In this document: in pieces, positions 52,941 through 63,929 of the stretch | How positions within the stretch are numbered: position 1 is the first letter of the stretch | Layout: the number at the start of each line of letters is the position of its first letter | From: an uncultured Oscillospiraceae bacterium | GTDB taxonomy: Bacteria; Bacillota; Clostridia; Oscillospirales; Ruminococcaceae | Direction: 5' to 3' | Assembly (NCBI GenBank): GCA_934513685.1 | Contig: CAKSWY010000002.1 | Span: 57,946 to 121,945, forward strand | DNA: 64,000 bases | The notes under the pieces: generated by a model | What the model was told of the DNA's origin: nothing | Database searches by the model: none | The model's input: the letters and a program-made list of their open reading frames with translations, nothing else | Made by a program: the position numbers and the translations under genes

Positions 52941-52990
52941 GAAGCAGAAGCGGCAGGTCCCAACGGATCTGCCGCTTCTGCTTTTGTTGT
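52941..52990. terminator. Bidirectional terminator between xpt and the Ubl-operon terminal gene
   Basis: Perfect 14-bp stem agcagaagcggcag / ctgccgcttctgct with TTTTGTTGTTTCC after it. Confidence 0.75.
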
Positions 52991-53091: not shown

Positions 53092-53718
53092 TCAGGCGAA
53101 CGGATTCTTCCCCTCGTCCACCGGCTCCCGCAGGGCGTGAAGCAGCGGCAGCGGGTTCTGCTTGTACAGCGCATAGCCCAGTCCAAGGGCCGCGCCGAAC
53201 GCACCCCCACCCAAAAAGTCGTGGCCGCCTTCAAACAGCAGCCCCGCCGCCAGCAGGCAGCCGCCCATCCACAGCAGGTAGCGCAGAAGGACCCGTCCTC
53301 TGGCCTCCAGCGCTTCCCGCTTGTGCCGGTTGACCGCCCGGGTGTATTGCAGGGCCTGGCCGTCCAGCCCGTGCAGGCGTTCCAGTGTTTCCCAGCTTTT
53401 TCGGGCGGGCGCGATCATCAGGGGAAATGGGGCCAGATTTTCAAAATTTTCCGTGGCCGCCTGCAGCGTCAGCCGATACAGGCGAACCTCGTCGGGCTGT
53501 TGATTCATTAAGGGGGTCAGCAGATCGACCGCCTCTTGCCAGTTTCCGGCCCGCAGATGGCGCACCGCCCGGTCAACGTCCTGGTCGAAGCGGCGAAGCT
53601 GCTCTTCCTGTGCAGGGTCCGCCACCGGCCAGCCGCAGCAGTCGCACTCCCGCCGCATCCGGTTCCGGTTGTAATGGCAGGCCGGGCAGCCGCATTGTGG
53701 GCACCGCCAATCGCTCAT
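53092..53718 (-). CDS. Zinc-ribbon plus transmembrane protein (last gene of the Ubl/E1/E2/JAB operon)
   Basis: 208 aa; N-terminal CPQCGCPACHY...CDCCGW zinc-ribbon-like cysteine cluster, helical middle, C-terminal hydrophobic segments (LLWMGGCLLAAGLLF...AFGAALGLGYALY). Confidence 0.5.
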   Translation of the reverse strand: MSDWRCPQCGCPACHYNRNRMRRECDCCGWPVADPAQEEQLRRFDQDVDRAVRHLRAGNWQEAVDLLTPLMNQQPDEVRLYRLTLQAATENFENLAPFPLMIAPARKSWETLERLHGLDGQALQYTRAVNRHKREALEARGRVLLRYLLWMGGCLLAAGLLFEGGHDFLGGGAFGAALGLGYALYKQNPLPLLHALREPVDEGKNPFA

Positions 53719-53754
53719 CCTGTCACCTTCTCTCTGTTCTCCGGTTTCGTTTTG

Positions 53755-54342
53755 TCAGTGCCGGGGCGGCTTTGCGGGCAGCGGCGGCACCACTTTGTTC
53801 CGGGGTGCCGGGTCAGCTGCCGGGGCAGGCTCCGGGCGGTACGGCGCACACAGCACCGGCGACGGCTCCGCCGCCTGCTGGGCATACCCGTCGTCCGCGC
53901 ATTCCGTCCGGTCATCCGCCGCCGGTTCCTCCGGCTCCAGCCAATCCAGAGGCTGCACGGCGGGCAGCTCACTGTGGGCAGTGGCTGCCGCCATCGGGAT
54001 CAGCACACCCAGAATGGCCAGCGTCATCGCCGCCATGGCAAAGCCCGCCGTGCGCAGGCTGGCGTTCACCGCCAAAAGCACCGCCCCCACCAGAATGGTA
54101 AAGGCCTGGGCCGCCCCGGCCAGCGCCGCTGCACCGGCGGCCCGTCGCAGGCCATACCGCCAGCACAACAGGCAGGCGTAAAGCGGCAACGCCAGAGTAA
54201 GCACGGTGCCCACCCCATGCACCAGCCAGCGGGCCGCCGCCATGGCAGGGGCCAGCCAGAAATAAAACAGCTGAGGCAGGGCCATCAAAGCCAGCAGCGC
54301 GGGCAGCACCATCCACCAAAACCGATTCGTGTTCCGCTCCAT
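53755..54342 (-). CDS. Small polytopic membrane protein with Pro/Ala-rich C-terminal tail
   Basis: 195 aa; RBS AGGAGGATG; 4-5 predicted TM helices. Confidence 0.5.
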   Translation of the reverse strand: MERNTNRFWWMVLPALLALMALPQLFYFWLAPAMAAARWLVHGVGTVLTLALPLYACLLCWRYGLRRAAGAAALAGAAQAFTILVGAVLLAVNASLRTAGFAMAAMTLAILGVLIPMAAATAHSELPAVQPLDWLEPEEPAADDRTECADDGYAQQAAEPSPVLCAPYRPEPAPAADPAPRNKVVPPLPAKPPRH

Positions 54343-54373
54343 GTTTCATCCTCCTGTTCGTTTGCCGTGTGAT

Positions 54374-55441
54374 TCATTCCAATCCGGTTCCGTTCGTCCC
54401 ATGGTTCGTGTGCAGCGGCTGGCCGCAGTGGGGGCAAACCGCCGCCTGCGGGCTGACGCTGCCGTGACAGCAGGGGCACTGCCGCAGCCGCCCCGGCAGC
54501 GGCGGCGTACCCGCCGGGCCGCCGGTTTGGGCCATCGTGCCCACCGTCTGCTGCAAAGTAGGCCAGAGCTGGCTCAGCAGCAGTGCCTGCGCCAAAGGTG
54601 CGGCCATCCCGCCGCCGCTTGCCTGCCCGGCGCTGCTGCCCCGGGCAGGCAGGCCCGTCATGGCTTCCGCCAGCGTGCGCCGGTCCAGGTTTCCGCCCCA
54701 GATCCGTTCCAGATGGTCCTTCTCCAGGTCGGTCTGCGTGCGGCCCGCGGCCTCTTTGCCTTCCAGCTCGTGCAGGCGCGCCCAGCCTTCCTCGGGAATG
54801 TTCACGGCCGTCACCGCAAACTGTTCCAGGCTCAGGCCAAACTCTGCCAGCGCCTGGGACAGCGGGCCGCGGGTCTCGGCCCCAATGGCCCCAAGACTTC
54901 GGTTAAACTCCACAATGGTGTGGCGGTTGAGCGCCCCGGCCAGAGTCTGCCGCAAGGGGGCCAGCACCAGCTGGCGCAGGCAGGGCTCCAGATCCTCGTC
55001 CGAGAACACGGCCTGATAGGTGCCCACCATCGTTTCCAGCGTCTGCAGCGGGTCCGCAATGCGGTAGGCCAAGCTGCACGAGGCCAGCGCCTCCATGGTC
55101 AGCCGGTAGCGCCGCTCCTCAAAGGGGATCGGCCCGGTGCCCAGCTGCATGAAGTTCGTTCTCTGGGTGGACACAAAGAACACGGTCACGCTCACCGGTG
55201 CTTCCCCACCGGTCATCAAATTGCGCAGCCGCACGAAGAAGGGGTCCACCCCGGTCATTAATTCGTAGCGCCCGGGCCAGTACGGCCCGACCACCTGCCC
55301 GTTAAGGGCGACAAAGGCCTGGGTTCCGGCCGGCACCAGCAGCACACTGCCGTTTACCACCGTCCGCCCCGGGCCGCAAAGCTCCGGCATCACGCGAATC
55401 AGGCTGCTTCCGCCCGGATCACGAATCACCCGCTGCAGCAT
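54374..55441 (-). CDS. SPFH/band-7 domain protein with C-terminal zinc ribbon
   Basis: 355 aa; RBS AGGAGGTG; SPFH-like core (PVSVTVFFVSTQRTNFMQLGTGPIPFEERRYRLTMEALASCSLAYRIADP); C-terminal CPCCHG...CPHCGQ zinc ribbon. Confidence 0.65.
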   Translation of the reverse strand: MLQRVIRDPGGSSLIRVMPELCGPGRTVVNGSVLLVPAGTQAFVALNGQVVGPYWPGRYELMTGVDPFFVRLRNLMTGGEAPVSVTVFFVSTQRTNFMQLGTGPIPFEERRYRLTMEALASCSLAYRIADPLQTLETMVGTYQAVFSDEDLEPCLRQLVLAPLRQTLAGALNRHTIVEFNRSLGAIGAETRGPLSQALAEFGLSLEQFAVTAVNIPEEGWARLHELEGKEAAGRTQTDLEKDHLERIWGGNLDRRTLAEAMTGLPARGSSAGQASGGGMAAPLAQALLLSQLWPTLQQTVGTMAQTGGPAGTPPLPGRLRQCPCCHGSVSPQAAVCPHCGQPLHTNHGTNGTGLE

Positions 55442-55460
55442 GGGTACACCTCCTGTTGAT

Positions 55461-56441
55461 TCAGCGGCTCGCCTGTTTCATAAGGGCAACGGCCCTCAGC
55501 GAAGCCACATGGTAAATGTTCCAGCATCCCGGCAGGCCGCGCAAGGCCTCGTGGATCGCCCGGCCCATCTGCGCATCGGTACACGGCGGCTGCATCTGCC
55601 CGTAGGCCATGCCGCCCTGCGCGGCACCGCTGCGCAGATGGCCGGTCAGCTCTGCCAGTGAGCAGACGCTGTGCCCGTGCAGCCGGTAATAGCTGTACGC
55701 CTCGGTGCGGCAGACGGGCAGGCCCTGCCCGGCAAACCCGCTGTGGTCCCGCGAGATCTGCTCGTCCGTCAGGTTGAAATACCGGTAGAGCATCGCGCCT
55801 TTCCCCGGCTTCTCCCAGGTCACATCGCAGTGCACCGGTTCGCCGTTCAGCCAGACCATCGCCCAGCAGTGGCCCTCCGTGCGCCCTCTCCCGAGGATTT
55901 GAACGCAGGCCACCCCGGCCCGGCGCAGGCAGTACAGCAGCAGGGCGTTCTGCCCCTCGCACACGCCCCGTGCGGTCAGCAGCGGCCCCACCAGATTGTG
56001 CTCCTGCTCGCTTCGGGTGTTCTGGTAGCGCAGCTGCCGGGCCAGCCGAATGTAAATGAGTTCTTCCCGCTGCACAAGGCTCAGGGCCGCCGTTCCGGCC
56101 ATCAACGGCAACATTTTCTGCCGGAAGGCCGCCTGCAATGTCTCGATTTCCGCAGGCGTATACAGCATTTGCAGCCGAAGCTTCCCTTCCTGCCCGCCGC
56201 GGTATAAGAAGGTCATCTGCCGCCCGAGGAAGAAGTACTCCGGCCGGTCATGCCGCAGGGCCTTGCAGGCAGCAAAGGCATCGTCGTATGCCCGTTCCCA
56301 CTTTTCCAGCGTCAGCGGAACCTCGGCGCGGTAATCTCCCCCGGCCAGGCGACGGTCCAGCTCATCGTAGAACCGCCTCGCCTGCCCGGGCGGCAGCCGG
56401 TCCCTGTAAAAACAGCGGCCCAGGGCGTGCGGCTCGCTCAT
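55461..56441 (-). CDS. Transglutaminase-like cysteine protease-fold protein
   Basis: 326 aa; RBS GGAAGAGGAGGG; the ATG overlaps the JAB stop (ATGA/TGA coupling). Cys-His-Asp triad context GVCEGQNALLLYCLRRAGV...GHCWAMVWLNG...HCDVTW. Confidence 0.7.
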   Translation of the reverse strand: MSEPHALGRCFYRDRLPPGQARRFYDELDRRLAGGDYRAEVPLTLEKWERAYDDAFAACKALRHDRPEYFFLGRQMTFLYRGGQEGKLRLQMLYTPAEIETLQAAFRQKMLPLMAGTAALSLVQREELIYIRLARQLRYQNTRSEQEHNLVGPLLTARGVCEGQNALLLYCLRRAGVACVQILGRGRTEGHCWAMVWLNGEPVHCDVTWEKPGKGAMLYRYFNLTDEQISRDHSGFAGQGLPVCRTEAYSYYRLHGHSVCSLAELTGHLRSGAAQGGMAYGQMQPPCTDAQMGRAIHEALRGLPGCWNIYHVASLRAVALMKQASR

Positions 56442-56442
56442 G

Positions 56443-57339
56443 TCAGCCCTCCTCTTCCTTCGGCCTGCCCGGAATCGTCAGTGTGACGCGCACTTTGGTG
56501 CAGCGGCGCAGCTTTCCGGTAACACAGCGGACGGTGCCTTTTGCCCCGTCCATGCGCAGGCAGCGGCTGGCCAGCTTCATCAATGCCTCCACCGGGAACT
56601 CCGGCATGGGGTGCTCCGTCTCCGCCGGGTGCGGCGCTTCTTTGGCCGCGGCCTTTGCGGTGCGGCGGCACACGATCACCTGGGCATTCTCAAAGTTTTT
56701 GCCGATGCTGGCCAGCATCTGGCGGCGAATGGGGTCGCACACAAAGATGCACACCGGCGCTTTGGCCGCCCGGGCTTCTCCGCTGCTGCGGTCCGTCCCG
56801 GACCAGAACACGCCCAGATCCGGGTGGGTGTGGCCCTCCAGGCAGTATTCACTGGGCCCGTACTCCAAAAACGGGTCCACCACGCACCCTTGGGCATCCC
56901 GGTTGAAGCGCTTTTCGTCCCGAAGGTACTCGTCCCGGTAATACTCCAGAAAGTCCAGCCCCGGGTTGTTCTCCCCGTTGGGGCCAAGGCCGGAGGCGGA
57001 GCTTCTCGTCCGGTTCATGGTGTGCACCTGCAGAAAGTGGCTGACCACCACGTTCACCCGGCCGTCCTTCTCCAGGAAGAAATGCCCCAGCCCGATGTAT
57101 TTCTGCTCCAAATGGTTCATGGGGGAACGGCGGCCGTAGCTCACCATCATGGTCAGTTCTTCGGCGGCTTCCGGCAGAAAGAACACGTAGTGTCGGCCCT
57201 TGCCGTGGCGCTCTGCCTGAAAGCTGCCGCAGTTCTTCTCAATCACCGCGGCGATCTCCACCGCGCTCAGCACCGGATACGTGCGGGACGGCGTAATGGG
57301 GCGCGGCGGCAACGGCGGGCAGTTCGTTTTCACTTCCAT
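56443..57339 (-). CDS. JAB/JAMM (MPN+) metallo-isopeptidase
   Basis: 298 aa; RBS AAAGGAGAA; JAMM zinc motif EGHTHPDLGVFWSGTD = H-x-H-x7-S-x2-D, with upstream Glu. Confidence 0.8.
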   Translation of the reverse strand: MEVKTNCPPLPPRPITPSRTYPVLSAVEIAAVIEKNCGSFQAERHGKGRHYVFFLPEAAEELTMMVSYGRRSPMNHLEQKYIGLGHFFLEKDGRVNVVVSHFLQVHTMNRTRSSASGLGPNGENNPGLDFLEYYRDEYLRDEKRFNRDAQGCVVDPFLEYGPSEYCLEGHTHPDLGVFWSGTDRSSGEARAAKAPVCIFVCDPIRRQMLASIGKNFENAQVIVCRRTAKAAAKEAPHPAETEHPMPEFPVEALMKLASRCLRMDGAKGTVRCVTGKLRRCTKVRVTLTIPGRPKEEEG

Positions 57340-57380: not shown

Positions 57381-58008
57381 TTAGCTGCGGCGCGGCAGCG
57401 GGGGCGGCGTGCCCGTGCCGGGGACCGCGCGGCGCACCGGAAGCGGCGGCCGCTGCGGGGCCTCCAGCAGCTTGGGCGAAATGGTGGGAAAGCGCCCGCT
57501 CGCCACACCGGCCCGGTGCCAGTCCGCCACATCGCCGTTGGCCATGGAGTCATAGCGGGTCACCGCCGGGTCGTGGATCATATCCTTCACCAGCTTTTCC
57601 GCCACCGTGAGCATCGAGCTGGTATAAATTTTCCATTCGTCAATGCAGGCGGCCCCGCTGCGGAATACGTTGGGGCTGGCCAGCCGCCGCTTTGCCGGGT
57701 AGGCAGCTTTCACGCTTTTCAGCGGATAGCCCAGAAACACCGCCACCTCCGCGCTCATAGAGGAACAGCTCTTGGGGGAAGCGTCGTCCCGGTCGGTGAG
57801 GTAATGGCTGGGGGCGTGCACCGTGATCCGGAAACGAAACTCCTCGCCCGGCTCACAGGCCACCTCCTCCACCGTCACATACCGGGGGTTGAACATACCC
57901 CGCAGAACGTTCCAGTCGTTGCGGATGGCCTCGCGGGATTCCCCGTCCGAAATGGAAACGGGCACGCTGCTGCCCCGCTCGTCCGTATAAGTCGTGCTGT
58001 ATGCCATG
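57381..58008 (-). CDS. Ubiquitin-conjugating enzyme (E2/UBC fold)-like protein
   Basis: ~209 aa from ATG 58008 (RBS AAGGAGGAG). UBC-like core EFRFRITVHAP..YPLKSVKAAYPAKRRLASPNVFRSGAACIDEW aligns to the eukaryotic E2 Y-P-F-K-P-P-K-V-x-F...HPN(V/I)...G-x-(I/V)-C-L-D block, including the catalytic Cys. Confidence 0.7.
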
Positions 58009-58020
58009 CTTCTCCTCCTT

Positions 58021-59279
58021 TTACTCCAAATGCTGCACCCGATGCATCTGCTCCGGGTCGCCCCGCAGGGCAAACACAAGCGTTTCCCGGCTGCCGTTGG
58101 CCTGCGTGCAGAGCACCTTCAGATGCGCGCCCAGCGGGTAGCCCAGCTGAAACAGGGTCCGTTCTTTCATCTCCGGGTCGCTCTCGGGCGAAAATGCATA
58201 AAGCACATCATCCATTGCGAAATCCACGTCGTACCGGGCCGGGCGGCCGACGGCGCGGCAGGCCTCACAGCGCAGATCCTGCAAAAAGGTGCGGCCCTCG
58301 TGCCGCATCACCTTGATAGGCGCGCCGCAGACGTGGCACAGGTCGCTGCGGATGAACCCGGTGTAGGTGCGCTGGTTGTAATTCAGCCAGTGAACCTGCA
58401 GCTCAAAGGCTGCCTGACCCAGCCGGGCGGCGATCTGCTCCAGCGCCTGTCCCAGCGTAAGTTCCAGCACCGTGCCCTCCAGCCAGAGGATCTCCTTCGG
58501 CGGCTGAACCGCACAGCCCGGGCAGCCCCGCTTCGCCTTGGGGTGGGTCACGGTCAGCTCCATATTCGGATAGGCGTAATAGGTCAGGCGCCGGTTCATG
58601 GCCTCTTTCACGCCGATCACCTGCGCGCGGAATTGCTCCGCCGTCAGGTTGGCCGCATGGCTGCTGGCCAGCCCGCTGGTGCGCACCGGCACCGTCTCAC
58701 CGTCCACCGCGCGCAGCTGCGGCCCGCTGCAGGAGGTGCGCACGGCTCCGTTTTCCAGCCAGCGCTCGTCCATCAGGCAGCGCAGGCAGAACTCTCGGCC
58801 GTCCATCATGACACTGCGCGCCATTTCGTCCTGCGTTCCGTCCATAATCACCACCGGGCGGCGCTCCGGCGGCAGCTGCATCCACAGCTCGTTGAACAGG
58901 GCCTTGGCCGCGTAATTGTCCAGGCACAGCACCACCACGTCGTAGTCCGCCAGTGCCTCCGGGCCGATCCTGCACAGGTCCGTGTCCACCCCGTTTGCGG
59001 TGCAGCCCTCTTCCAGAAACGGCTGCACCCGCCGGGCCACGCACCGGGCCTTGTTTTGGCCCACATCCTCCGGCGTGCGCACCAGGCAGCTGTGCTTGGC
59101 GGCATTTTCCAGCGTAAAGGTGTCAAAGTCGAGCAGGTCCAGGCTGCATCCCATTTTCACCAGCGCTTCCGCCACGTTAGACCCCACCGCGCCCGCGCCG
59201 CAAATGAGCACGCGTTTTCCGCCGAACAGCGGCCGATAGGCCGACAGCTTCAACGGATTGTACAGACGATCCTCCATCA
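58021..59279 (-). CDS. ThiF/MoeB-type ubiquitin-activating (E1)-like enzyme with C-terminal Cys-rich domain
   Basis: ~419 aa from ATG 59279 (RBS AGGAGG). Rossmann motif KRVLICGAGAVGSNVAEALVKMG, then LDLLDFDTFTLENAAKH; four C-x-x-C pairs in the C-terminal third. Confidence 0.8.
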
Positions 59280-59312
59280 TTTCCTCCTGTTTTGTTTCCG
59301 TCCTCGGCGACC

Positions 59313-59786
59313 TCAAAGAATGGGCCGCCCGTTGGGGGCAATTCGATGGCCGTTCGGGCAGCGATAACATCCGGCCGTTTCATTCCAGAAAATTTTCTGG
59401 GGCTGCCCGGGCAGGTTCCGCGCCCGGTCGATTGGGCAGCACGGGAACTGATCCGGCCGAATGCCCCGCGGCCCCGCGCCTGCCGCCGGGAGGGTGCGTC
59501 GCACCGCCGGTTCCGACCGCGAGGGCCGGGCGGTTCGCGGGTTCCGGTGGTTGATCGGCTCTTCCCGCCGCGCCGGGCGTACGTTTGCCGGGGCGGCCAG
59601 TCTCGGCCGATTTCCCACAGGCTGCCGAAGCGCCGCCGGGCGGCTCGCGCTGCCTCTCCCCTGCGGCAGAGGCGGCGGCTGTCTGCTTTTGTACGATGGT
59701 TTGCTGCGGCGGTTCAGGGCCATCCAGGCAGCCCCACCGCCCAGCAGCAGAATCGCCCCCGCTGCAATGCAAATCCAGTTCAGCAT
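59313..59786 (-). CDS. Small membrane-anchored protein with Arg/Pro-rich disordered tail
   Basis: 157 aa; good RBS GAGGAAGGA 7 nt upstream of the ATG; N-terminal TM helix MLNWICIAAGAILLLGGGAAWMAL; the rest is low-complexity R/P-rich. High GC makes a spurious ORF possible. Confidence 0.4.
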   Translation of the reverse strand: MLNWICIAAGAILLLGGGAAWMALNRRSKPSYKSRQPPPLPQGRGSASRPAALRQPVGNRPRLAAPANVRPARREEPINHRNPRTARPSRSEPAVRRTLPAAGAGPRGIRPDQFPCCPIDRARNLPGQPQKIFWNETAGCYRCPNGHRIAPNGRPIL

Positions 59787-59828: not shown

Positions 59829-60146
59829 TTAAGCCACGCCGCCGTCGTCCGAAATGGTCAGCACATCGCCGTTCATCAGCCCCATGCCCTCCACCGTCTC
59901 GTTCTCATCGCAGCTTTCCACACCGGTGCGCTTATTCACAAACACCAGCTTGGCCGCGTCCCTCCGGATTCCCAGATCCTGCGCATACGCGTCCAACAGC
60001 TGGCCCATGGTGTTGCCTCCCACCACCGGGACCTTGGCGTAGGTCACGCCGCTGCCCTTGTTCACCAGATCGATCTCCATCATGGTCTGGGTGGTGCTGT
60101 CCTGCATGGTCGCTTCGCTCGCATCAAATTTGTTCCGTTCCGTCAT
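59829..60146 (-). CDS. Ubiquitin-like (beta-grasp) protein with C-terminal ...GG-VA
   Basis: ~105 aa from ATG 60146 (RBS GAAAGGGAG). ~80-aa beta-grasp-sized core ending LTISDDGGVA*; first gene of the operon that also encodes E1, E2 and JAB. Confidence 0.7.
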   Translation of the reverse strand: MTERNKFDASEATMQDSTTQTMMEIDLVNKGSGVTYAKVPVVGGNTMGQLLDAYAQDLGIRRDAAKLVFVNKRTGVESCDENETVEGMGLMNGDVLTISDDGGVA

Positions 60147-60169
60147 GGTTCGTCTCCCTTTCTGCACTC

Positions 60170-60563
60170 ATACTGTGTGTTGTATCCGGATTCCGCAGCT
60201 TCTTGTGAAAGCCTCGTGTCCGGATTTCTTTATGTCAAAACTCTCGCCGCCGGATGCATATTGTCGGATATACGATGCAACTTTTCAAAATTTGCTGCAA
60301 TTGGAGGAATTGACGCGAAACAGCAAAAGCCGCGGTGTCTGCACACCGCGGCTTTTCTGCTTTATTTTATAGGACATATGGTACGATAGGCACGCACAGG
60401 GAAGGCTTTGCTGCATTGGCATTCCCCTCGAGAGGATTTGATTGGTGTTATCGCATTAATTGTTTACGTAATTACTTGCGGAAGCTTGAACGGCGGCCGA
60501 AATGGCAGCATATTAGATTCACATACGATATACTTTCTTTCCTTTGGAGCGTTCAACCTCCAA
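60170..60563. promoter_or_regulatory. AT-rich intergenic region between the Ubl operon and the CRISPR array (Ubl-operon promoter region / CRISPR trailer)
   Basis: ~400 bp, distinctly AT-richer than its surroundings. Four direct CCGGAT/TCGGAT repeats (60185, 60220, 60250, 60275) and a perfect 14-bp hairpin aaaagccgcggtgt-ctgc-acaccgcggctttt at 60325-60356. Confidence 0.45.
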
Positions 60564-62056
60564 GAGTCACCCCTGCGTATACGGGGGAAAAGCCAGCGCC
60601 ATCTGCAACTTCGCAATGGCCGTAGGATCACCCCCGCGCATGCGGGGAAAAGTCTCCGATAAAAACGGTGTTTCCGCCGGACGGGGGATCACCCCCGCGC
60701 ATGCGGGGAAAAGCTTTGACCCAAAGTTGGCCCGGTTGTGTCCTACGGGATCACCCCCGCGCATGCGGGGAAAAGGCCTGAACGACCGAGAAAATGCCCG
60801 CGATGGTGGGATCACCCCCGCGCATGCGGGGAGAAGAGTTTTTAAACGATGCACCGTCAGTCCATGTGGGGATCACCCCCGCGCATGCGGGGAGAAGTGT
60901 GAAAATCGGCCCGGACACCTACCGCAAAAAGGATCACCCCCGCGCATGCGGGGAGAAGTTGGCTTTTTACAATCCGTGTTATAGGGCTTTAGGATCACCC
61001 CCGCGCATGCGGGGAAAAGGGTAAAAGGTGCCGTCGCCGGGCACCAGCCAGGGGATCACCCCTGCGTATGCGGGGAAAAGCAGGCAAGGCCGGGGCCGAC
61101 GGTCACGGTCATGGGATCACCCCCGCGCATGCGGGGAAAAGTACCGATTTCGGCGGCACACGCCAATGTACTCAGGATCACCCCCGCGCATGCGGGGAAA
61201 AGTTTGTCGGCAGCTGCGTAAAGAATTCAACCACGGGATCACCCCCGCGCATGCGGGGAAAAGTGCAGCGCCGACTAAAAAATATAGGCAATGCCAGGAT
61301 CACCCCCGCGCATGCGGGGAAAAGAACATTTTTGCACATAACAGCGTACTTAAATTGGGATCACCCCCGCGCATGCGGGGAAAAGTTGTGCATAATTGTC
61401 CATATGCAGCACATCACAGGATCACCCCCGCGCATGCGGGGAAAAGAAACAGTCCTCAAAACCGACGACCCATCGGTTAGGATCACCCCCGCGCATGCGG
61501 GGAAAAGCAGCGTCCACAGCCCTGCAACAATCATACATAAGGATCACCCCCGCGCATGCGGGGAAAAGGAAATTTGTGCTTGATGGGATGCAAGCGGCGG
61601 GGGATCACCCCCGCGCATGCGGGGAAAAGAACTCGCCCGTCTCCATGTTCTCGACGCCCACAGGATCACCCCCGCGCATGCGGGGAAAAGTGAGTTATAA
61701 TAAAGACGATGAAAGGAGTGATAGGATCACCCCCGCGCATGCGGGGAAAAGACATTGTGAGGTGCGTATGAATTTTTTGAAGTGGGATCACCCCCGCGCA
61801 TGCGGGGAAAAGCATTTTTTGAGAAGGGGGGTGAATTTGTGAGCGGGATCACCCCCGCGCATGCGGGGAAAAGACACTCCCTGACGCAATCAACAACGGC
61901 GTCGAGGGATCACCCCCGCGCATGCGGGGAAAAGCCGGCGCATCTTCCACCCCCGAGGCCCGGAGCGGGATCACCCCCGCGCATGCGGGGAAAAGAAGGC
62001 TGCGATCGTATGTTTGGCCCGTGAGACGGGATCACCCCCGCGCATGCGGGGAAAAG
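60564..62056 (-). CRISPR. CRISPR array, type I-E-like: 25 repeats of 28 nt (GGATCACCCCCGCGCATGCGGGGAAAAG on + strand), 24 spacers of 32-34 nt
   Basis: 61-62 nt periodicity; the repeat has an internal CCCCGC-GCAT-GCGGGG hairpin. The repeat at 60564 is degenerate (gagtcacccctgcgtatacgggggaaaag); variants occur at 61053 and at 60809/60870/60931 (GAGAAG). Orientation is assigned tentatively from the degenerate terminal repeat and the co-oriented cas genes. Confidence 0.9.
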
Positions 62057-62073: not shown

Positions 62074-62967
62074 TCACCGACTGTATCCGTTGCGTTCCGC
62101 TCCATTTTCGTTTAGTTTCGCATAAACTTTCTGCGTCAAACGGCAGTCGGGCACCGCCCGGTGCTCTACCTTGTCTGCCAGCGCAAAATGCTGCGCCAGT
62201 GCAAGCAGTTTATAACTGGACAGGCCCAGTATTTTTCGCCGTGCAAGAGGAAGGAGATCGATTTTCCGGTTGGCCAAAACCGGTTTCATGTTCCGAATGC
62301 AGGCCATACGCAGAAATTCCAAATCAAATTGCAGGTTGTGTCCCACCAAAGTATCTTTGCCTACAAAGCGCAGGAACGCCTCCAGCGCATCCGCGGCGTC
62401 CATACCGCCTTCCAGTTCTTCCTGTGTGATGCCCGTCAGGCGGGCAATTTCTGCGGGCAACGGCGTTTCCAGCCGCACCAGCGCCGAAAACTCCTCTCCT
62501 GGCTGCCCATCCCGGACCCGGACCGCGCCATACTCCACGATTGCATCCGTTGCCGCATGCAGTCCTGTTGTTTCAAGGTCGATCACGGTATAATCCTGCT
62601 TTCCGGGCGGTCGGGCAGCTCTTTGCGCCATTTTCTGTGCCATCTGATACTTTGCCGCCTTGCTGAATCCCGGTTTCAGCTCCAACGCCTCGACCTGGGG
62701 TTGCGCTTGCGGAAGCGGACGGCGCATCAGCTTAATGCCGTCGTAATCCACCACTTCCCAGTTAGTATTATGGGTGCGGAATTCCATCTTCTGCTCGCCG
62801 GCCGCTGTATAGACCATCGTCGCCTGTCCATTTTTCAGGTACTGGCAGACCCGATCCCAGACCGCATCCCGCACGCGGCTGCTCACGTTCCCCACGTAGA
62901 CGCCGGTGTTGATCTCACACAGCCATTTGGACAGATCTCCCCGCAGGCGCGGCGGGCAGCTGGTCAT
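62074..62967 (-). CDS. cas2: CRISPR-associated Cas2 fused to DnaQ-like 3'-5' exonuclease (type I-E Cas2-DnaQ)
   Basis: N-terminus PPRLRGDLSKWLCEINTGVYVGNVSSRVRD matches E. coli Cas2 [26 protein letters not shown]. C-terminal DEDDh exonuclease motifs (VIDLETTGL, GHNLQFDLEFL, YSR). The true start is probably upstream at a non-ATG codon (~62982), restoring the IVVLT beta-strand. Confidence 0.85.
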   Translation of the reverse strand: MTSCPPRLRGDLSKWLCEINTGVYVGNVSSRVRDAVWDRVCQYLKNGQATMVYTAAGEQKMEFRTHNTNWEVVDYDGIKLMRRPLPQAQPQVEALELKPGFSKAAKYQMAQKMAQRAARPPGKQDYTVIDLETTGLHAATDAIVEYGAVRVRDGQPGEEFSALVRLETPLPAEIARLTGITQEELEGGMDAADALEAFLRFVGKDTLVGHNLQFDLEFLRMACIRNMKPVLANRKIDLLPLARRKILGLSSYKLLALAQHFALADKVEHRAVPDCRLTQKVYAKLNENGAERNGYSR

Positions 62968-62975
62968 CGTCAGAA

Positions 62976-63929
62976 CTACAATGGCTCCTCACCCTCTTCC
63001 CAGGCAGCATAGTTGATGCCGTTGGACACCGTGCCGAGGTTGTTGTCCCAAAGATACACGGCATCCGGTTCTTCCATCTGTTCTCCGTCGCTCAGCAGCA
63101 GCCAGCGAATGTCATGCACCATCCGTTCCAGAATATGGTGCTCCACCATGGCATCCCGCACACGGCGGCGCACAACGGCAGGCAGGTCTTCCGGTGCCTG
63201 CGTTGCAACCTCAAATGCGATGGGAATGGTCACCTCGGCCTTATACAGGTCTGCAATGTCGTACACAAAAGAACACTCATGGCCGACATGCACAAACCCC
63301 AGCCCTGGTGCGCAGCCCAACGCGACAATGACCGCATGCGCCAGCCCATACAGGCACGCATGCCCGGCCGACAGCGCCTGATTGACCAGGTCTCCTAACG
63401 CAAAATCCTCCGGGCGGTACAGCCGTCCACTCCATGGCACGCCGGTTTCTTTGGACGCCTTGCGGTAGACGTTCCTCACACGGCTGCCCTCCCGGCCGCG
63501 TAGCTGCTGCATCGTAAGGTTGGAAACATCTTCTTCAGGGAAACGCAGCTGATACATCTTACGCACCACGTCCAAATGCTTCCGTTGGTTGCTGACAAGT
63601 TCTGCCTGCCGAATCAGCATCCTGGAATGGGTGGTCAGCGGGCGTCCGTGGGCGTAGTAGCGCACGCCGTGCTCTCCCACCCAGACAGCTCCCACGCCGG
63701 TATCGCCCATCAGCTCCATAGCGCGATGGGTCACGCGGGTGCCAGGCCCAAGCAGCAGCACCGAGATGCCCGCCGCCGGGATCTGGACGACGCCTTTTTC
63801 GTCCGTCACGGTAATGGCACCGTCCTGCCGCCCCAGCGTACAGTGTTCCAGATACAGAAACGTCATCCGGTCTTTTACCTGTGGCAGTGCCTGCAAATCA
63901 GGCCGGATCATGCCCGGAAGTTCATCCAT
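62976..63929 (-). CDS. cas1: CRISPR-associated endonuclease Cas1, type I-E
   Basis: 317 aa; closely alignable to E. coli Cas1/YgbT (GTRVTHRAM, VWVGEHGVRYYA, DVVRKMYQLRF, LRGREGSRVR, GFVHVGHECSFVYDIADLYK); RBS GGAGGAA. Confidence 0.92.
   Translation of the reverse strand: MDELPGMIRPDLQALPQVKDRMTFLYLEHCTLGRQDGAITVTDEKGVVQIPAAGISVLLLGPGTRVTHRAMELMGDTGVGAVWVGEHGVRYYAHGRPLTTHSRMLIRQAELVSNQRKHLDVVRKMYQLRFPEEDVSNLTMQQLRGREGSRVRNVYRKASKETGVPWSGRLYRPEDFALGDLVNQALSAGHACLYGLAHAVIVALGCAPGLGFVHVGHECSFVYDIADLYKAEVTIPIAFEVATQAPEDLPAVVRRRVRDAMVEHHILERMVHDIRWLLLSDGEQMEEPDAVYLWDNNLGTVSNGINYAAWEEGEEPL

What the first reader, a model, noticed from the sequence alone, without database searches (positions are those of the whole stretch)
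53092..56441. Putative effector module (TGase-like, SPFH-zinc ribbon and two membrane proteins) translationally coupled to the JAB gene
The transglutaminase-like gene's ATG overlaps the JAB stop (ATGA) and the following three genes are spaced 19-36 nt apart with individual strong RBSs, so they are co-expressed with the conjugation machinery. A transglutaminase-fold enzyme could be a second cysteine peptidase or cross-linker acting on Ubl conjugates. SPFH proteins scaffold membrane microdomains and recur in abortive-infection systems. The two small proteins combine zinc ribbons with TM helices. This combination attached to a Ubl system is not one I recognise as described.
Basis: inference. Interest (0 to 1): 0.7.

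Follow-up and report, generated by a model that had tools for sequence, protein, structure and literature searches.

The report
Membrane module of a ubiquitin-like operon
The four genes are real and form the conserved back half of a nine-gene bacterial ubiquitin-like tagging operon that appears to be anchored to the cell membrane, a combination I could not find described anywhere.

Summary
The four genes exist at the stated coordinates on the minus strand. They are a transglutaminase-like enzyme with an intact Cys-His-Asp triad, a soluble YdjI-type SPFH protein with a C-terminal zinc ribbon, a 4-TM protein, and a zinc-ribbon/TPR-like/TM protein. Two details of the observation are wrong. The JAB stop and the TGase start are 1 nt apart (TGAcATG), not an ATGA overlap. 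Only one of the two small proteins has a zinc ribbon.

With Ubl, a TM/zinc-ribbon protein, E1, E2 and JAB they form one tightly packed nine-gene unit. The same nine genes, in the same order, recur at 27-60% protein identity in at least 11 Clostridia lineages and at least six unrelated genomic settings. Every sampled relative of the SPFH gene (6 of 6) sits in the cassette.

One variant keeps only the TGase. Another replaces all four genes with a phosphatase, a kinase/nuclease protein and another large protein.

A proline motif, P[LMI]PxR, occurs in exactly five cassette proteins (TM/ZnR protein, E2, JAB, SPFH, 4-TM protein). This argues for one physical complex.

The best reading is a membrane-tethering and enzymatic sub-module of a Bil-like, probably anti-phage, conjugation system. 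A killing "effector" role is not shown. Pfam, NCBIfam, PADLOC, PHROGs and literature searches gave no match to the cassette as a whole. I rate it a new variant of a known kind.

The parts
59829..60167 (-). Ubl (beta-grasp) gene. The probable true start is M8 (about 60146). The C-terminus is ...DDGGVA, and the terminal VA is invariant in orthologues.
   Evidence: Alignment A8. The L043 orthologue weakly hits DUF2604 and UN_NPL4. The L044 orthologue has a faint Rad60-SLD hit. L043 and L059 carry tandem di-Ubl forms; the 187-aa L060 product is of the same size.
59313..59786 (-). Small membrane protein 'g2'. It has an N-terminal TM helix, a PPPLPxR motif and a C-terminal zinc ribbon (FPCCP...CYRCxxGH).
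   Evidence: Alignment A6, hydropathy. It is present in every locus, including the variants L041 and L058.
58021..59370 (-). E1 (ThiF-type adenylating enzyme). The probable true start is M31/M32 (about 59280), judged from where orthologues begin.
   Evidence: Pfam ThiF E 1e-20. PADLOC E1-E2 models give partial hits. tblastn matches in orthologous loci begin at query residues 32-36.
57381..58007 (-). E2 (UBC fold). It has an ASPNVFRSGxxC motif with an invariant Cys, an invariant His 24 residues downstream, and a C-terminal PPLPxR tail. The mechanical ORF extends to 58079, but orthologues start at MAYSTTY.
   Evidence: Alignments A1 and A10. AF2 model pLDDT 89.9. All 50 listed Foldseek PDB matches are UBC E2s, probability 1.00.
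56443..57339 (-). JAB/JAMM metallopeptidase with an N-terminal PPLPPR motif.
   Evidence: Invariant E57, H170, H172, S180 and D183. The profile hits Rpn11/PSMD14 and CSN5 weakly over the motif region.
55461..56441 (-). Cytosolic transglutaminase-like thiol enzyme with catalytic triad C161-H191-D206.
   Evidence: Pfam PF01841. The triad is invariant in 20 sequences, including distant relatives. The profile matches PDB 9crn_A at E 2.5e-11 over residues 6-259. It has no signal peptide, unlike most distant homologues.
54374..55441 (-). Soluble SPFH (Band_7_1) protein with a low-complexity Gly/Met-rich linker, a PP[LM]PxR motif and a C-terminal zinc ribbon (C322, C325, C336, C339).
   Evidence: Pfam, alignment A7, no TM segment.
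53755..54342 (-). Four-TM membrane protein with a cytosolic proline-rich tail ending in an invariant PLP(P)R motif.
   Evidence: Alignment A5, hydropathy.
53092..53718 (-). Protein with an N-terminal zinc ribbon, a TPR-like helical region (invariant GNW), a TM hairpin and an invariant C-terminal NPF.
   Evidence: Alignment A4. One segment (143-162) passes the hydropathy threshold; the second half of the hairpin is read from the sequence. Residues 42-94 match repeat units of TPR and DUF7104 repeat proteins.
60260..60356 (-). Upstream hairpin (60325-60356) and the only sigma-70-like promoter match (60288-60260) ahead of the Ubl gene.
   Evidence: These are consensus matches only.
52941..52984 (.). 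Strong bidirectional intrinsic terminator shared with the convergent phosphoribosyltransferase gene.

Best explanation
The four genes are the distal half of a single nine-gene operon. The gene order is Ubl, TM/ZnR protein, E1, E2, JAB, TGase-like enzyme, SPFH-ZnR protein, 4-TM protein, ZnR/TPR-like/TM protein. The operon forms a distinct, membrane-associated family of bacterial ubiquitin-like conjugation systems.

Shown:
- The operon is compact, and its order is conserved across divergent lineages and genomic contexts.
- The TGase, E2 and JAB catalytic residues are intact.
- The SPFH protein is soluble.
- Three cassette proteins have hydrophobic segments that fit membrane anchoring.
- A P[LMI]PxR peptide motif is confined to five cassette proteins.

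Inferred:
- The 4-TM and ZnR/TPR/TM proteins recruit the soluble SPFH protein to the membrane, as YdjG and YdjH recruit YdjI in Bacillus subtilis.
- The shared PxxPxR tails of SPFH, the 4-TM protein, the TM/ZnR protein, E2 and JAB dock on a common receptor inside the conjugation core. The motif persists in a variant that lacks the whole module, so the receptor must be in the core.
- Ubl activation, transfer and removal therefore take place on an SPFH-organised membrane patch.
- The TGase-like enzyme is always immediately downstream of JAB and is kept even when the SPFH trio is lost. It is an enzymatic partner of the conjugation cycle, most likely a thiol (iso)peptidase or a transamidase acting on Ubl conjugates.
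- The biological role is most likely defence against phages or other mobile elements that act at the membrane.
For: - Operon compactness and its single promoter and terminator.
- All nine genes, in order, in the window clade and in L035, L037, L039, L043, L044/L055, L052, L059, L060, L061 and L062, at 27-60% identity.
- These loci sit in different settings: next to a phosphoribosyltransferase gene and an ABC transporter, next to dnaA/dnaN, beside the integrase of a Tn916-like element, and next to two-component and glycosyltransferase genes.
- Thirteen contig lengths are shared between the independent SPFH and E2 hit lists.
- The JAB-TGase junction is 6 nt or less, or overlapping, in all lineages.
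- L041 keeps TGase but lacks the SPFH trio.
- The P[LMI]PxR motif is in exactly g2, E2, JAB, SPFH and the 4-TM protein. It is absent from Ubl, E1, TGase and ZnTM, and from the accessory proteins apart from one non-recurrent internal match in the L035 HerA-like ATPase.
- Six of the seven PP[LMI]P occurrences in all long six-frame ORFs of the 64-kb window lie in the cassette.
- The motif is retained in L058, which lacks the module.
- The YdjI analogy (soluble SPFH, low-complexity region, zinc finger, dependence on two co-encoded membrane proteins): PMC8581546, bioRxiv 10.64898/2026.02.06.704340, PMC11237479.
- Defence context: a type I-E-like CRISPR array and cas1/cas2-dnaQ directly upstream; phage genes at the same spot in sister strains; cargo position in a mobile element; a HerA-like ATPase plus WHH nuclease appended in six lineages.
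Against: - There is no experimental evidence of any kind.
- No protein-protein interaction has been tested, and the receptor for the motif is not identified.
- The two membrane proteins are not homologues of YdjG or YdjH. They lack the NTF2-like and TPM domains, and no pspA gene is present, so the recruitment analogy is architectural only.
- The TGase structure model failed (pLDDT 36), so peptidase and cross-linker cannot be distinguished.
- No cassette protein matches any PADLOC defence model except E1, and that match is partial.
- Some loci sit among housekeeping genes (L061, L035).
- Context sampling covers about 17 lineages, mostly metagenome contigs from gut Clostridia.
Confidence: 0.55

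Rival explanations
1. The four genes are the killing or output effector of the Ubl system. On infection, Ubl conjugation or deconjugation activates the TGase, SPFH and membrane proteins, which damage the membrane or proteome and abort the infection.
For: - The position downstream of JAB behaves like a swappable output slot. L058 has PP2C, a 1176-aa protein and a kinase/Card1-like nuclease there. L041 has only TGase followed by a ClpP-like protease.
- Three cassette proteins have predicted TM helices.
- The TGase has an intact thiol-enzyme triad.
Against: - The SPFH protein is of the YdjI type, which is known as a scaffold and not a toxin.
- No pore-forming, nuclease or NADase domain is found in the four proteins.
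- SPFH and the 4-TM protein carry the same docking motif as E2 and JAB, which fits constitutive assembly.
- Where clear toxins occur (the WHH nuclease), they are additional to the four genes and do not replace them.
Confidence: 0.25
2. The cassette is not an immune system. It is an accessory membrane-stress or membrane-protein quality-control system, a Psp/YdjGHI-like module that uses Ubl tagging and a thiol peptidase to mark or remove membrane proteins.
For: - The SPFH protein has the YdjI/SamI architecture, and two membrane partners are co-encoded.
- In Bacillus, a Cap2-type E1/E2 conjugates its substrate to PspA, and YdjI co-purifies (PMC11153139).
- Some loci have housekeeping neighbours.
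- The nine-gene core contains no toxin.
Against: - The cassette is found at a different locus in each lineage, including inside a mobile element and next to CRISPR or prophage genes.
- A nuclease and a HerA-like ATPase are frequently appended.
- No pspA gene is present.
Confidence: 0.15
3. The four genes are an independent operon that merely lies next to the Ubl genes in this genome.
For: - Each of the last three genes has its own Shine-Dalgarno sequence.
- The wider TGase family occurs in 28 other Clostridia genomes without any of the other eight genes.
- Generic SPFH-ZnR proteins occur in other contexts.
Against: - Order and adjacency are conserved in at least 11 lineages and at least six genomic contexts.
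- The JAB-TGase junction is 1 nt here and 6 nt or less everywhere.
- No intergenic terminator or promoter was found.
- The distant TGase relatives are mostly secreted proteins or lipoproteins, so they belong to a different sub-family.
- SPFH and the 4-TM protein share the motif with E2 and JAB.
Confidence: 0.03

Closest known systems
Bil (bacterial ISG15-like) BilABCD operons, types I and II (Iyer 2006 classes 6d and 6c; Chambers et al., Hor et al.)
   Same: - Both have separate genes for a single- or multi-beta-grasp Ubl, a Cys-dependent UBC-fold E2, a JAB/JAMM peptidase and a ThiF-type E1.
- Like class 6d, the E2 lacks the HPN histidine (here SPN) and has an invariant His C-terminal to the Cys.
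- Some orthologues have Ubl C-terminal extensions or tandem Ubls that would need JAB processing.
- Both are found near CRISPR and mobile elements.
   Different: - The gene order is Ubl-TM/ZnR-E1-E2-JAB, not Ubl-E2-DUB-E1.
- There are five extra conserved genes: the TM/ZnR protein, TGase, SPFH, the 4-TM protein and the ZnR/TPR/TM protein.
- The Ubl ends in an invariant Val-Ala rather than a conserved Gly.
- Profiles of the E2 and JAB do not retrieve any chain named as Bil, Cap2 or Cap3 at E up to 10. All listed fold matches of the E2 are eukaryotic E2s.
- The PxxPxR motif network and membrane anchoring are not described for Bil.
Bacillus subtilis PspA-YdjGHI (SamGHI) membrane-stress module
   Same: [quoted passage not shown]
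- In both, the SPFH gene sits beside two genes for membrane proteins, one of which has an N-terminal zinc ribbon and a C-terminal TM segment.
   Different: - There is no pspA gene.
- The membrane proteins lack the NTF2-like (YdjG) and TPM (YdjH) domains.
- The SPFH protein is only about 22-25% identical to generic SPFH-ZnR proteins.
- The gene order is reversed: here SPFH comes first.
- Here the module is embedded in a Ubl conjugation operon.
Type II CBASS Cap2/Cap3
   Same: - Both use E1/E2-type conjugation with a JAB peptidase.
- In a Bacillus system the conjugation target is the membrane-associated PspA, and the donor C-terminus is an Ala (PMC11153139).
   Different: - There is no CD-NTase and no E2-E1 fusion.
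- There is no cyclic-nucleotide effector.
- A dedicated Ubl is present.
Transglutaminase-like thiol peptidase superfamily (PF01841; PDB 9crn_A-like Firmicutes proteins)
   Same: - Both have the core fold signature and the Cys-His-Asp triad.
- The N-terminal helical domain is shared with 9crn_A.
   Different: - The cassette version is cytosolic and forms its own clade.
- Most relatives at 22-34% identity carry signal peptides or lipoboxes and have none of the other cassette genes nearby.

Membership tests
Bil (BilABCD) Ubl-conjugation defence operons | Presence of a Ubl, a Cys-E2, a JAB deubiquitinase-type peptidase and a ThiF-type E1 as separate genes | tested here: met
   E1 matches Pfam ThiF at E 1e-20. 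The E2 AF2 model and Foldseek search give the UBC fold, with an invariant Cys. The JAMM motif is invariant. The Ubl family alignment is supported by weak UN_NPL4, DUF2604 and Rad60-SLD hits.
Bil (BilABCD) Ubl-conjugation defence operons | Four-gene operon in the order Ubl-E2-DUB-E1 | tested here: not met
   There are nine conserved genes in the order Ubl-TM/ZnR-E1-E2-JAB-TGase-SPFH-4TM-ZnR/TM. The Bil order is described in PMC10557695.
Bil (BilABCD) Ubl-conjugation defence operons | Sequence-level membership of E2 and JAB in the BilB and BilC families | tested here: inconclusive
   E2 and JAB get no hit in PADLOC, NCBIfam or Pfam. The PDB profile searches return only eukaryotic E2, Rpn11 and CSN5 chains, weakly, and none named as Bil. 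No dedicated Bil HMM library was available.
Bil (BilABCD) Ubl-conjugation defence operons | Ubl conjugation to a phage protein, and protection from phage | not testable with these tools
   This needs infection assays and mass spectrometry.
Bub (bacterial ubiquitination-like) operons | Oxyester (serine) E1/E2 chemistry, a DUF6527 serine protease, and Ubl-E2 or E2-E1 fusions | tested here: not met
   The E2 has an invariant Cys in the UBC active-site position. There are no gene fusions and no DUF6527 hit. The definition is taken from PMC11601603.
Type II CBASS | CD-NTase plus a Cap2 E2-E1 fusion, Cap3, and a nucleotide-activated effector | tested here: not met
   No nucleotidyltransferase is present. 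E1 hits the PADLOC 'E1-E2' models only over the adenylation domain. E2 is a separate gene.
YdjGHI/SamGHI SPFH membrane module | [quoted passage not shown] | tested here: met
   Pfam Band_7_1 at E 1.7e-19. No TM segment. A Gly/Met-rich linker and four invariant Cys residues. YdjI is described in PMC8581546.
YdjGHI/SamGHI SPFH membrane module | Partner YdjG (two ZnRs, an NTF2-like domain and a TM segment), partner YdjH (TPM domain), and pspA in the operon | tested here: not met
   The 208-aa protein has one ZnR, a TPR-like region and a TM hairpin. The 195-aa protein has four TM segments and nothing else. There are no TPM or PspA hits. The definitions are taken from PMC11237479.
Transglutaminase-like superfamily (PF01841) | Profile match above the gathering threshold, and a Cys-His-Asp triad | tested here: met
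   32.1 bits against a cut-off of 23. C161, H191 and D206 are invariant in 20 sequences.
Transglutaminase-like superfamily (PF01841) | Actual activity (peptidase, transamidase or deamidase) | not testable with these tools
   The structure model failed. This needs biochemistry.

The most novel reading that the evidence does not exclude
The cassette is a self-assembling, membrane-microdomain ubiquitination machine.
- An SH3-ligand-like PxxPxR code tethers E2, the JAB peptidase, an SPFH scaffold and two membrane anchors to the E1/Ubl core.
- A transglutaminase-fold enzyme serves as a second Ubl-directed catalyst, so proteins at the membrane (for example phage entry, assembly or lysis factors) are tagged in situ.
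- This would be a prokaryotic counterpart of eukaryotic membrane-associated ubiquitination. From my own knowledge, eukaryotic SPFH proteins (erlins) scaffold ubiquitin ligases, and transglutaminase-fold proteins (PNGase, Rad4/XPC) partner Ubl-domain proteins.
Probability: 0.2. Interest if true: 0.85.

Novelty: new variant of a known kind. Interest (0 to 1): 0.68.

Why it matters
- The bacterial ubiquitin-like conjugation systems described in the papers I read (type II CBASS, Bil, Bub) are presented as compact enzyme sets, and how they find their targets is still largely open.
- This family adds five conserved non-canonical components, three of them apparently membrane-anchored, and a shared peptide motif that predicts how the parts assemble.
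- It therefore gives directly testable hypotheses about spatial control of bacterial ubiquitination.
- It also raises the question of a second catalytic activity, because a TGase-fold enzyme is coupled to the JAB peptidase.
- The cassette is found mostly in contigs assigned to gut Clostridia (Oscillospiraceae, Lachnospirales), where few defence systems have been studied, so it may matter for phage-host dynamics in the gut microbiome.

Tried and rejected
- **TGase structure.** The permitted alignment of relatives at 84% identity or more gave a useless model (pLDDT 36). No fold search was run on it, so two fold searches went unused.
- **Family libraries.** PADLOC, NCBIfam and PHROGs gave no meaningful hit for any of the four module proteins, nor for E2, JAB, Ubl or g2.
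- **Comparative genomics from the TGase gene.** The homologue search returned only relatives at 84% identity or more. The genome scan returned two cassette loci plus 28 distant paralogues, mostly secreted, with none of the other cassette genes nearby. The informative searches were the ones started from the SPFH and E2 genes.
- **Viral contigs.** The scan gave one locus (L059). Its 20 kb show no recognisable phage gene, so a phage origin is not supported.
- **Literature.** Searches for the combination TGase, SPFH/Band-7, E1, E2 and JAB, and for PDB entry 9CRN, found nothing that describes this cassette. The Iyer 2006 classes 6a-6e do not include it.
- **Is the receptor of the PxxPxR motif in the module (for example the TPR-like ZnTM protein)?** Rejected as the sole receptor, because L058 lacks the module yet keeps the motif in g2, E2 and JAB.
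- **Do the accessory HerA-like, WHH, ClpP and T4CP-like genes belong to the core?** Left open. They are variably present, and only one, the L035 HerA-like ATPase, has a single internal match that is not seen in its L060 counterpart.

Full report
**Observation**

The region holds four minus-strand ORFs: 55461-56441 (326 aa), 54374-55441 (355 aa), 53755-54342 (195 aa) and 53092-53718 (208 aa).

Reading the sequence confirms gaps of 19, 31 and 36 nt, each with an AGGAGG or GAAGGTGA ribosome-binding site.

The claimed ATGA overlap with JAB is wrong. The JAB stop is TGA at 56445-56443, then C at 56442, then ATG at 56441. An AGGAGG lies within the JAB 3' end.

Pfam assigns Transglut_core to the first protein (E 1.4e-7, above the gathering score). 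It assigns Band_7_1 and Band_7 plus weak C-terminal zinc-ribbon hits to the second. It assigns nothing to the last two.

By hydropathy the 195-aa protein has four TM segments and no zinc ribbon. The 208-aa protein has an N-terminal four-Cys ribbon and one C-terminal segment above the hydropathy threshold (143-162); a second, Gly-rich hydrophobic stretch that follows makes a hairpin likely. TGase and SPFH have none.

**The operon**

Five more genes lie upstream on the same strand:
- a Ubl (59829-60167);
- a small protein with a TM helix, a proline-rich linker and a zinc ribbon (59313-59786);
- a ThiF-type E1 (Pfam E 1e-20);
- an E2-like protein;
- a JAB protein.

Alignments with orthologues correct two starts. 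The E2 starts at M25, about 58007. The E1 starts at M31/32, about 59280. With these starts, every intergenic gap in the nine-gene unit is 42 nt or less.

The E2 has the invariant motif ASxNxFRxGxxCIDxW. Its AlphaFold model is confident (pLDDT 89.9, pTM 0.81). All 50 listed Foldseek PDB matches are eukaryotic UBC E2 enzymes (probability 1.00).

The JAB protein has an invariant E...HTHPxxGVFxSxxD JAMM motif. Its profile weakly matches Rpn11 and CSN5 over that motif.

The only promoter-like match (60288-60260) and a strong hairpin (60325-60356) precede the Ubl gene. A 20-bp-stem terminator (52941-52984) follows the last gene. The terminator-like hits inside the unit have short stems, and by coordinates nearly all fall within coding sequence.

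**Is the module linked to the Ubl genes?**

Close relatives (85-98% identity; MAG contigs labelled Oscillospiraceae) carry all nine genes at the same site, next to a phosphoribosyltransferase gene and an ABC transporter. They have phage morphogenesis genes where this window has a CRISPR array.

Starting from the TGase was uninformative. Its more distant relatives (22-34% identity) in 28 Clostridia genomes have none of the other eight genes nearby. Most are secreted proteins or lipoproteins.

Starting from the SPFH protein was informative. It gave a clean clade at 38-54% identity, separated by a large gap (E 1e-66, then 1e-11) from generic SPFH-ZnR proteins. All six contexts sampled from that clade carry the full nine-gene cassette in the same order.

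Starting from the E2 gave 170 clusters. Thirteen of the listed contig lengths coincide with those in the SPFH list.

The E2-based contexts and the metagenome and viral scans gave these results:
- The full cassette is present in L043, L044/L055, L052 and L059.
- L056 and several other loci are cut short by contig ends.
- L041 (a contig labelled Lachnospirales) keeps Ubl-TM/ZnR-E1-E2-JAB-TGase. It has no SPFH, 4-TM or ZnR/TM gene, and a ClpP-like gene follows instead.
- L058 (many overlapping long ORFs, as in GC-rich DNA) keeps Ubl-ZnR-E1-E2-JAB. These are followed by a PP2C phosphatase, a 1176-aa protein and a 1386-aa kinase/Card1-like nuclease protein.

In total, at least 11 lineages carry the nine-gene block, in at least six different genomic settings:
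- the phosphoribosyltransferase/ABC-transporter site;
- next to dnaA/dnaN;
- a site flanked by an HD/TGS protein and an AAA ATPase;
- beside the sigma70-r4/HTH_16/HTH_17/integrase set of a Tn916-like element;
- next to two-component and glycosyltransferase genes;
- clusters with T4CP-like ATPases.

The nearest outgroup SPFH-ZnR protein (25% identity) lies in an unrelated context.

The linkage is strong, but the module is separable: TGase is tighter to the core than the SPFH trio.

**Features of the four proteins**

*TGase.* C161, H191 and D206 are invariant, including in distant relatives. The profile matches PDB 9crn_A, a 'transglutaminase-like domain-containing protein', over the N-terminal helical domain and the core (E 2.5e-11). 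No paper on that entry was found. The protein is cytosolic. In every lineage the JAB-TGase junction is 6 nt or less. It overlaps by 4 nt in L039, L041, L043 and L062, and by 1 nt in L060.

*SPFH.* It has a Band_7_1 domain, a Gly/Met-rich linker, a PP[LM]PxR motif, and then an invariant CxxC...CxxC. This is the architecture reported for B. subtilis YdjI/SamI. YdjI is soluble and is recruited to the membrane by the co-encoded membrane proteins YdjG and YdjH.

*4-TM protein.* It has a conserved N-terminal PQ...WWLAP segment, four TM helices, a variable linker and an invariant C-terminal PLP(P)R.

*ZnR/TM protein.*
- It has an invariant four-Cys ribbon, an invariant GNW in a helical region, a TM hairpin and an invariant C-terminal NPF.
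- An exhaustive search found 107 clusters at 50% identity. Nearly all are 200-220 aa long.
- Three hits are large repeat proteins in which residues 42-94 match 8-11 repeat units. Pfam calls these TPR or DUF7104. The helical region is therefore TPR-like.

**A shared motif**

A P[LMI]PxR peptide, usually PPPLPxR, resembles the class II SH3-ligand consensus (from my own knowledge). It occurs in exactly five of the nine proteins:
- after the TM helix of the small upstream protein;
- at the E2 C-terminus;
- at the JAB N-terminus;
- before the SPFH zinc ribbon;
- at the C-terminus of the 4-TM protein.

It is conserved there across lineages. It is absent from Ubl, E1, TGase and the ZnR/TM protein. 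Among the accessory neighbours the only match is one internal hit in the HerA-like ATPase of L035, which its L060 counterpart lacks.

Six of the seven PP[LMI]P occurrences in all long six-frame ORF segments of the 64-kb window fall in the cassette.

L058 lacks the whole module yet keeps the motif in its ZnR protein, E2 and JAB. The receptor must therefore lie in the conjugation core.

Two module proteins use the same motif as E2 and JAB. This is sequence-level evidence that they join the same complex.

**The Ubl**

The family ends in an invariant Val-Ala. That is the natural C-terminus in the window and in several orthologues. L035, L039 and L058 have short extensions after it. L043 and L059 carry head-to-tail di-Ubls, and the 187-aa L060 product is of the same size. 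This implies processing after VA, presumably by JAB.

**Context and accessory genes**

Directly upstream in the window are:
- a 24-repeat CRISPR array (60625-62056, period 61);
- a Cas2-DnaQ fusion gene;
- cas1.

Six lineages append an ATPase of about 850 aa (HerA/DUF87/TraG-like) and a WHH/colicin-DNase nuclease right after the last module gene.

Four lineages have a ClpP-like protease, a protein of about 260 aa and a TraG/VirD4-like ATPase downstream. Another such ATPase, a TPR protein and a YbjN-like protein are often found upstream.

The window cassette, L039 and L061 have none of these.

**Interpretation**

The evidence favours a single system: a Bil-like Ubl conjugation machine organised at the membrane. 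The SPFH protein and its two membrane partners would act as a scaffold, by analogy with YdjGHI. The TGase-like enzyme would be an obligate catalytic partner of JAB, either an isopeptidase or a transamidase.

A defence role is inferred from context only.

The slot downstream of JAB is swappable in L058 and L041. But no toxic domain is present in the four proteins, and the motif sharing points to assembly.

**Comparison with known systems**

The component set matches Bil (Iyer class 6d/6c). The gene order, the five extra conserved genes, the VA terminus and the lack of sequence-level matches do not.

Bub and type II CBASS are excluded. The E2 uses Cys, there are no fusions, and there is no DUF6527 protein or CD-NTase.

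Literature searches found no description of a Ubl operon with TGase and SPFH components.

I classify it as a new variant, a new operon family, of a known kind.

**Limits**

- All function is inferred.
- The TGase model failed.
- Contexts come from about 17 lineages of mostly metagenomic contigs.
- Taxonomy rests on MAG labels.
- The promoter and terminator calls are consensus matches only.

Noticed in passing
window 59668-59685 (g2), 57387-57404 (E2 C-terminus), 57301-57318 (JAB N-terminus), 54484-54501 (SPFH), 53770-53784 (4-TM tail); also L035-L062: A P[LMI]PxR motif, usually PPPLPxR and resembling a class II SH3 ligand, recurs in exactly five of the nine cassette proteins. It is conserved across lineages. 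Six of the seven PP[LMI]P occurrences in the window's long six-frame ORFs are in the cassette. The receptor is not identified.
   Followed up: partly
window 53095-53103 (C-terminus of the 208-aa protein): The C-terminal Asn-Pro-Phe is invariant in all eight aligned orthologues of the ZnR/TPR-like/TM protein. It is probably a second docking peptide. No partner is known.
   Followed up: no
window 59832-59837; L043 7677-8237, L059 7714-8277, L060 5165-5728: The Ubl family ends in an invariant Val-Ala, not Gly-Gly. L043 and L059 encode head-to-tail di-Ubls, each unit ending in GVA, and the 187-aa L060 Ubl is of the same size. Others have short C-terminal extensions. Both imply proteolytic maturation after VA.
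   Followed up: partly
window 60625-62056, 62074-62967, 62976-63929: There is a CRISPR array of 24 repeats of 28 nt (GGATCACCCCCGCGCATGCGGGGAAAAG, period 61). It lies next to a Cas2-DnaQ (RNase_T) fusion gene and cas1, which looks like type I-E. In sister strains (L001-L004) phage scaffold and minor-capsid genes occupy this flank instead.
   Followed up: partly
L035 12296-15485; L037 12300-15513; L052 7779-11067; L059 14826-18114; L060 12323-15563; L062 12296-15505: In six lineages, an ATPase of about 850 aa (HerA/DUF87/TraG-like) and a WHH/colicin-DNase nuclease of about 220-240 aa follow the last module gene directly. Apart from one internal match in the L035 ATPase, they lack the PxxPxR motif. 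This may be an optional effector pair or an adjacent system.
   Followed up: partly
L041, L043, L044, L060 (for example L060 751-4554 and 15981-20190): The cassette is embedded between two TraG/VirD4-like ATPases. A ClpP-like protease, a conserved protein of about 260 aa, a TPR protein, a YbjN-like chaperone and sometimes a Peptidase_M50 are also present. No other type IV secretion genes are seen. The meaning is unknown.
   Followed up: no
L058 4560-12996: This is a divergent relative in a contig with many overlapping long ORFs, as in GC-rich DNA. It has Ubl, a ZnR protein, E1, E2 and JAB. After JAB come a PP2C phosphatase, a 1176-aa protein with a weak Baseplate_J hit, and a 1386-aa protein kinase/Card1-like endonuclease. 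These take the place of the TGase/SPFH module.
   Followed up: partly
window 58008-58079 and 59281-59370: The mechanical ORF starts of E2 (TTG at 58079) and E1 (ATG at 59370) are probably too far upstream. Orthologues begin at the positions matching M25 of E2 and M31/32 of E1. This removes the apparent gene overlaps.
   Followed up: yes
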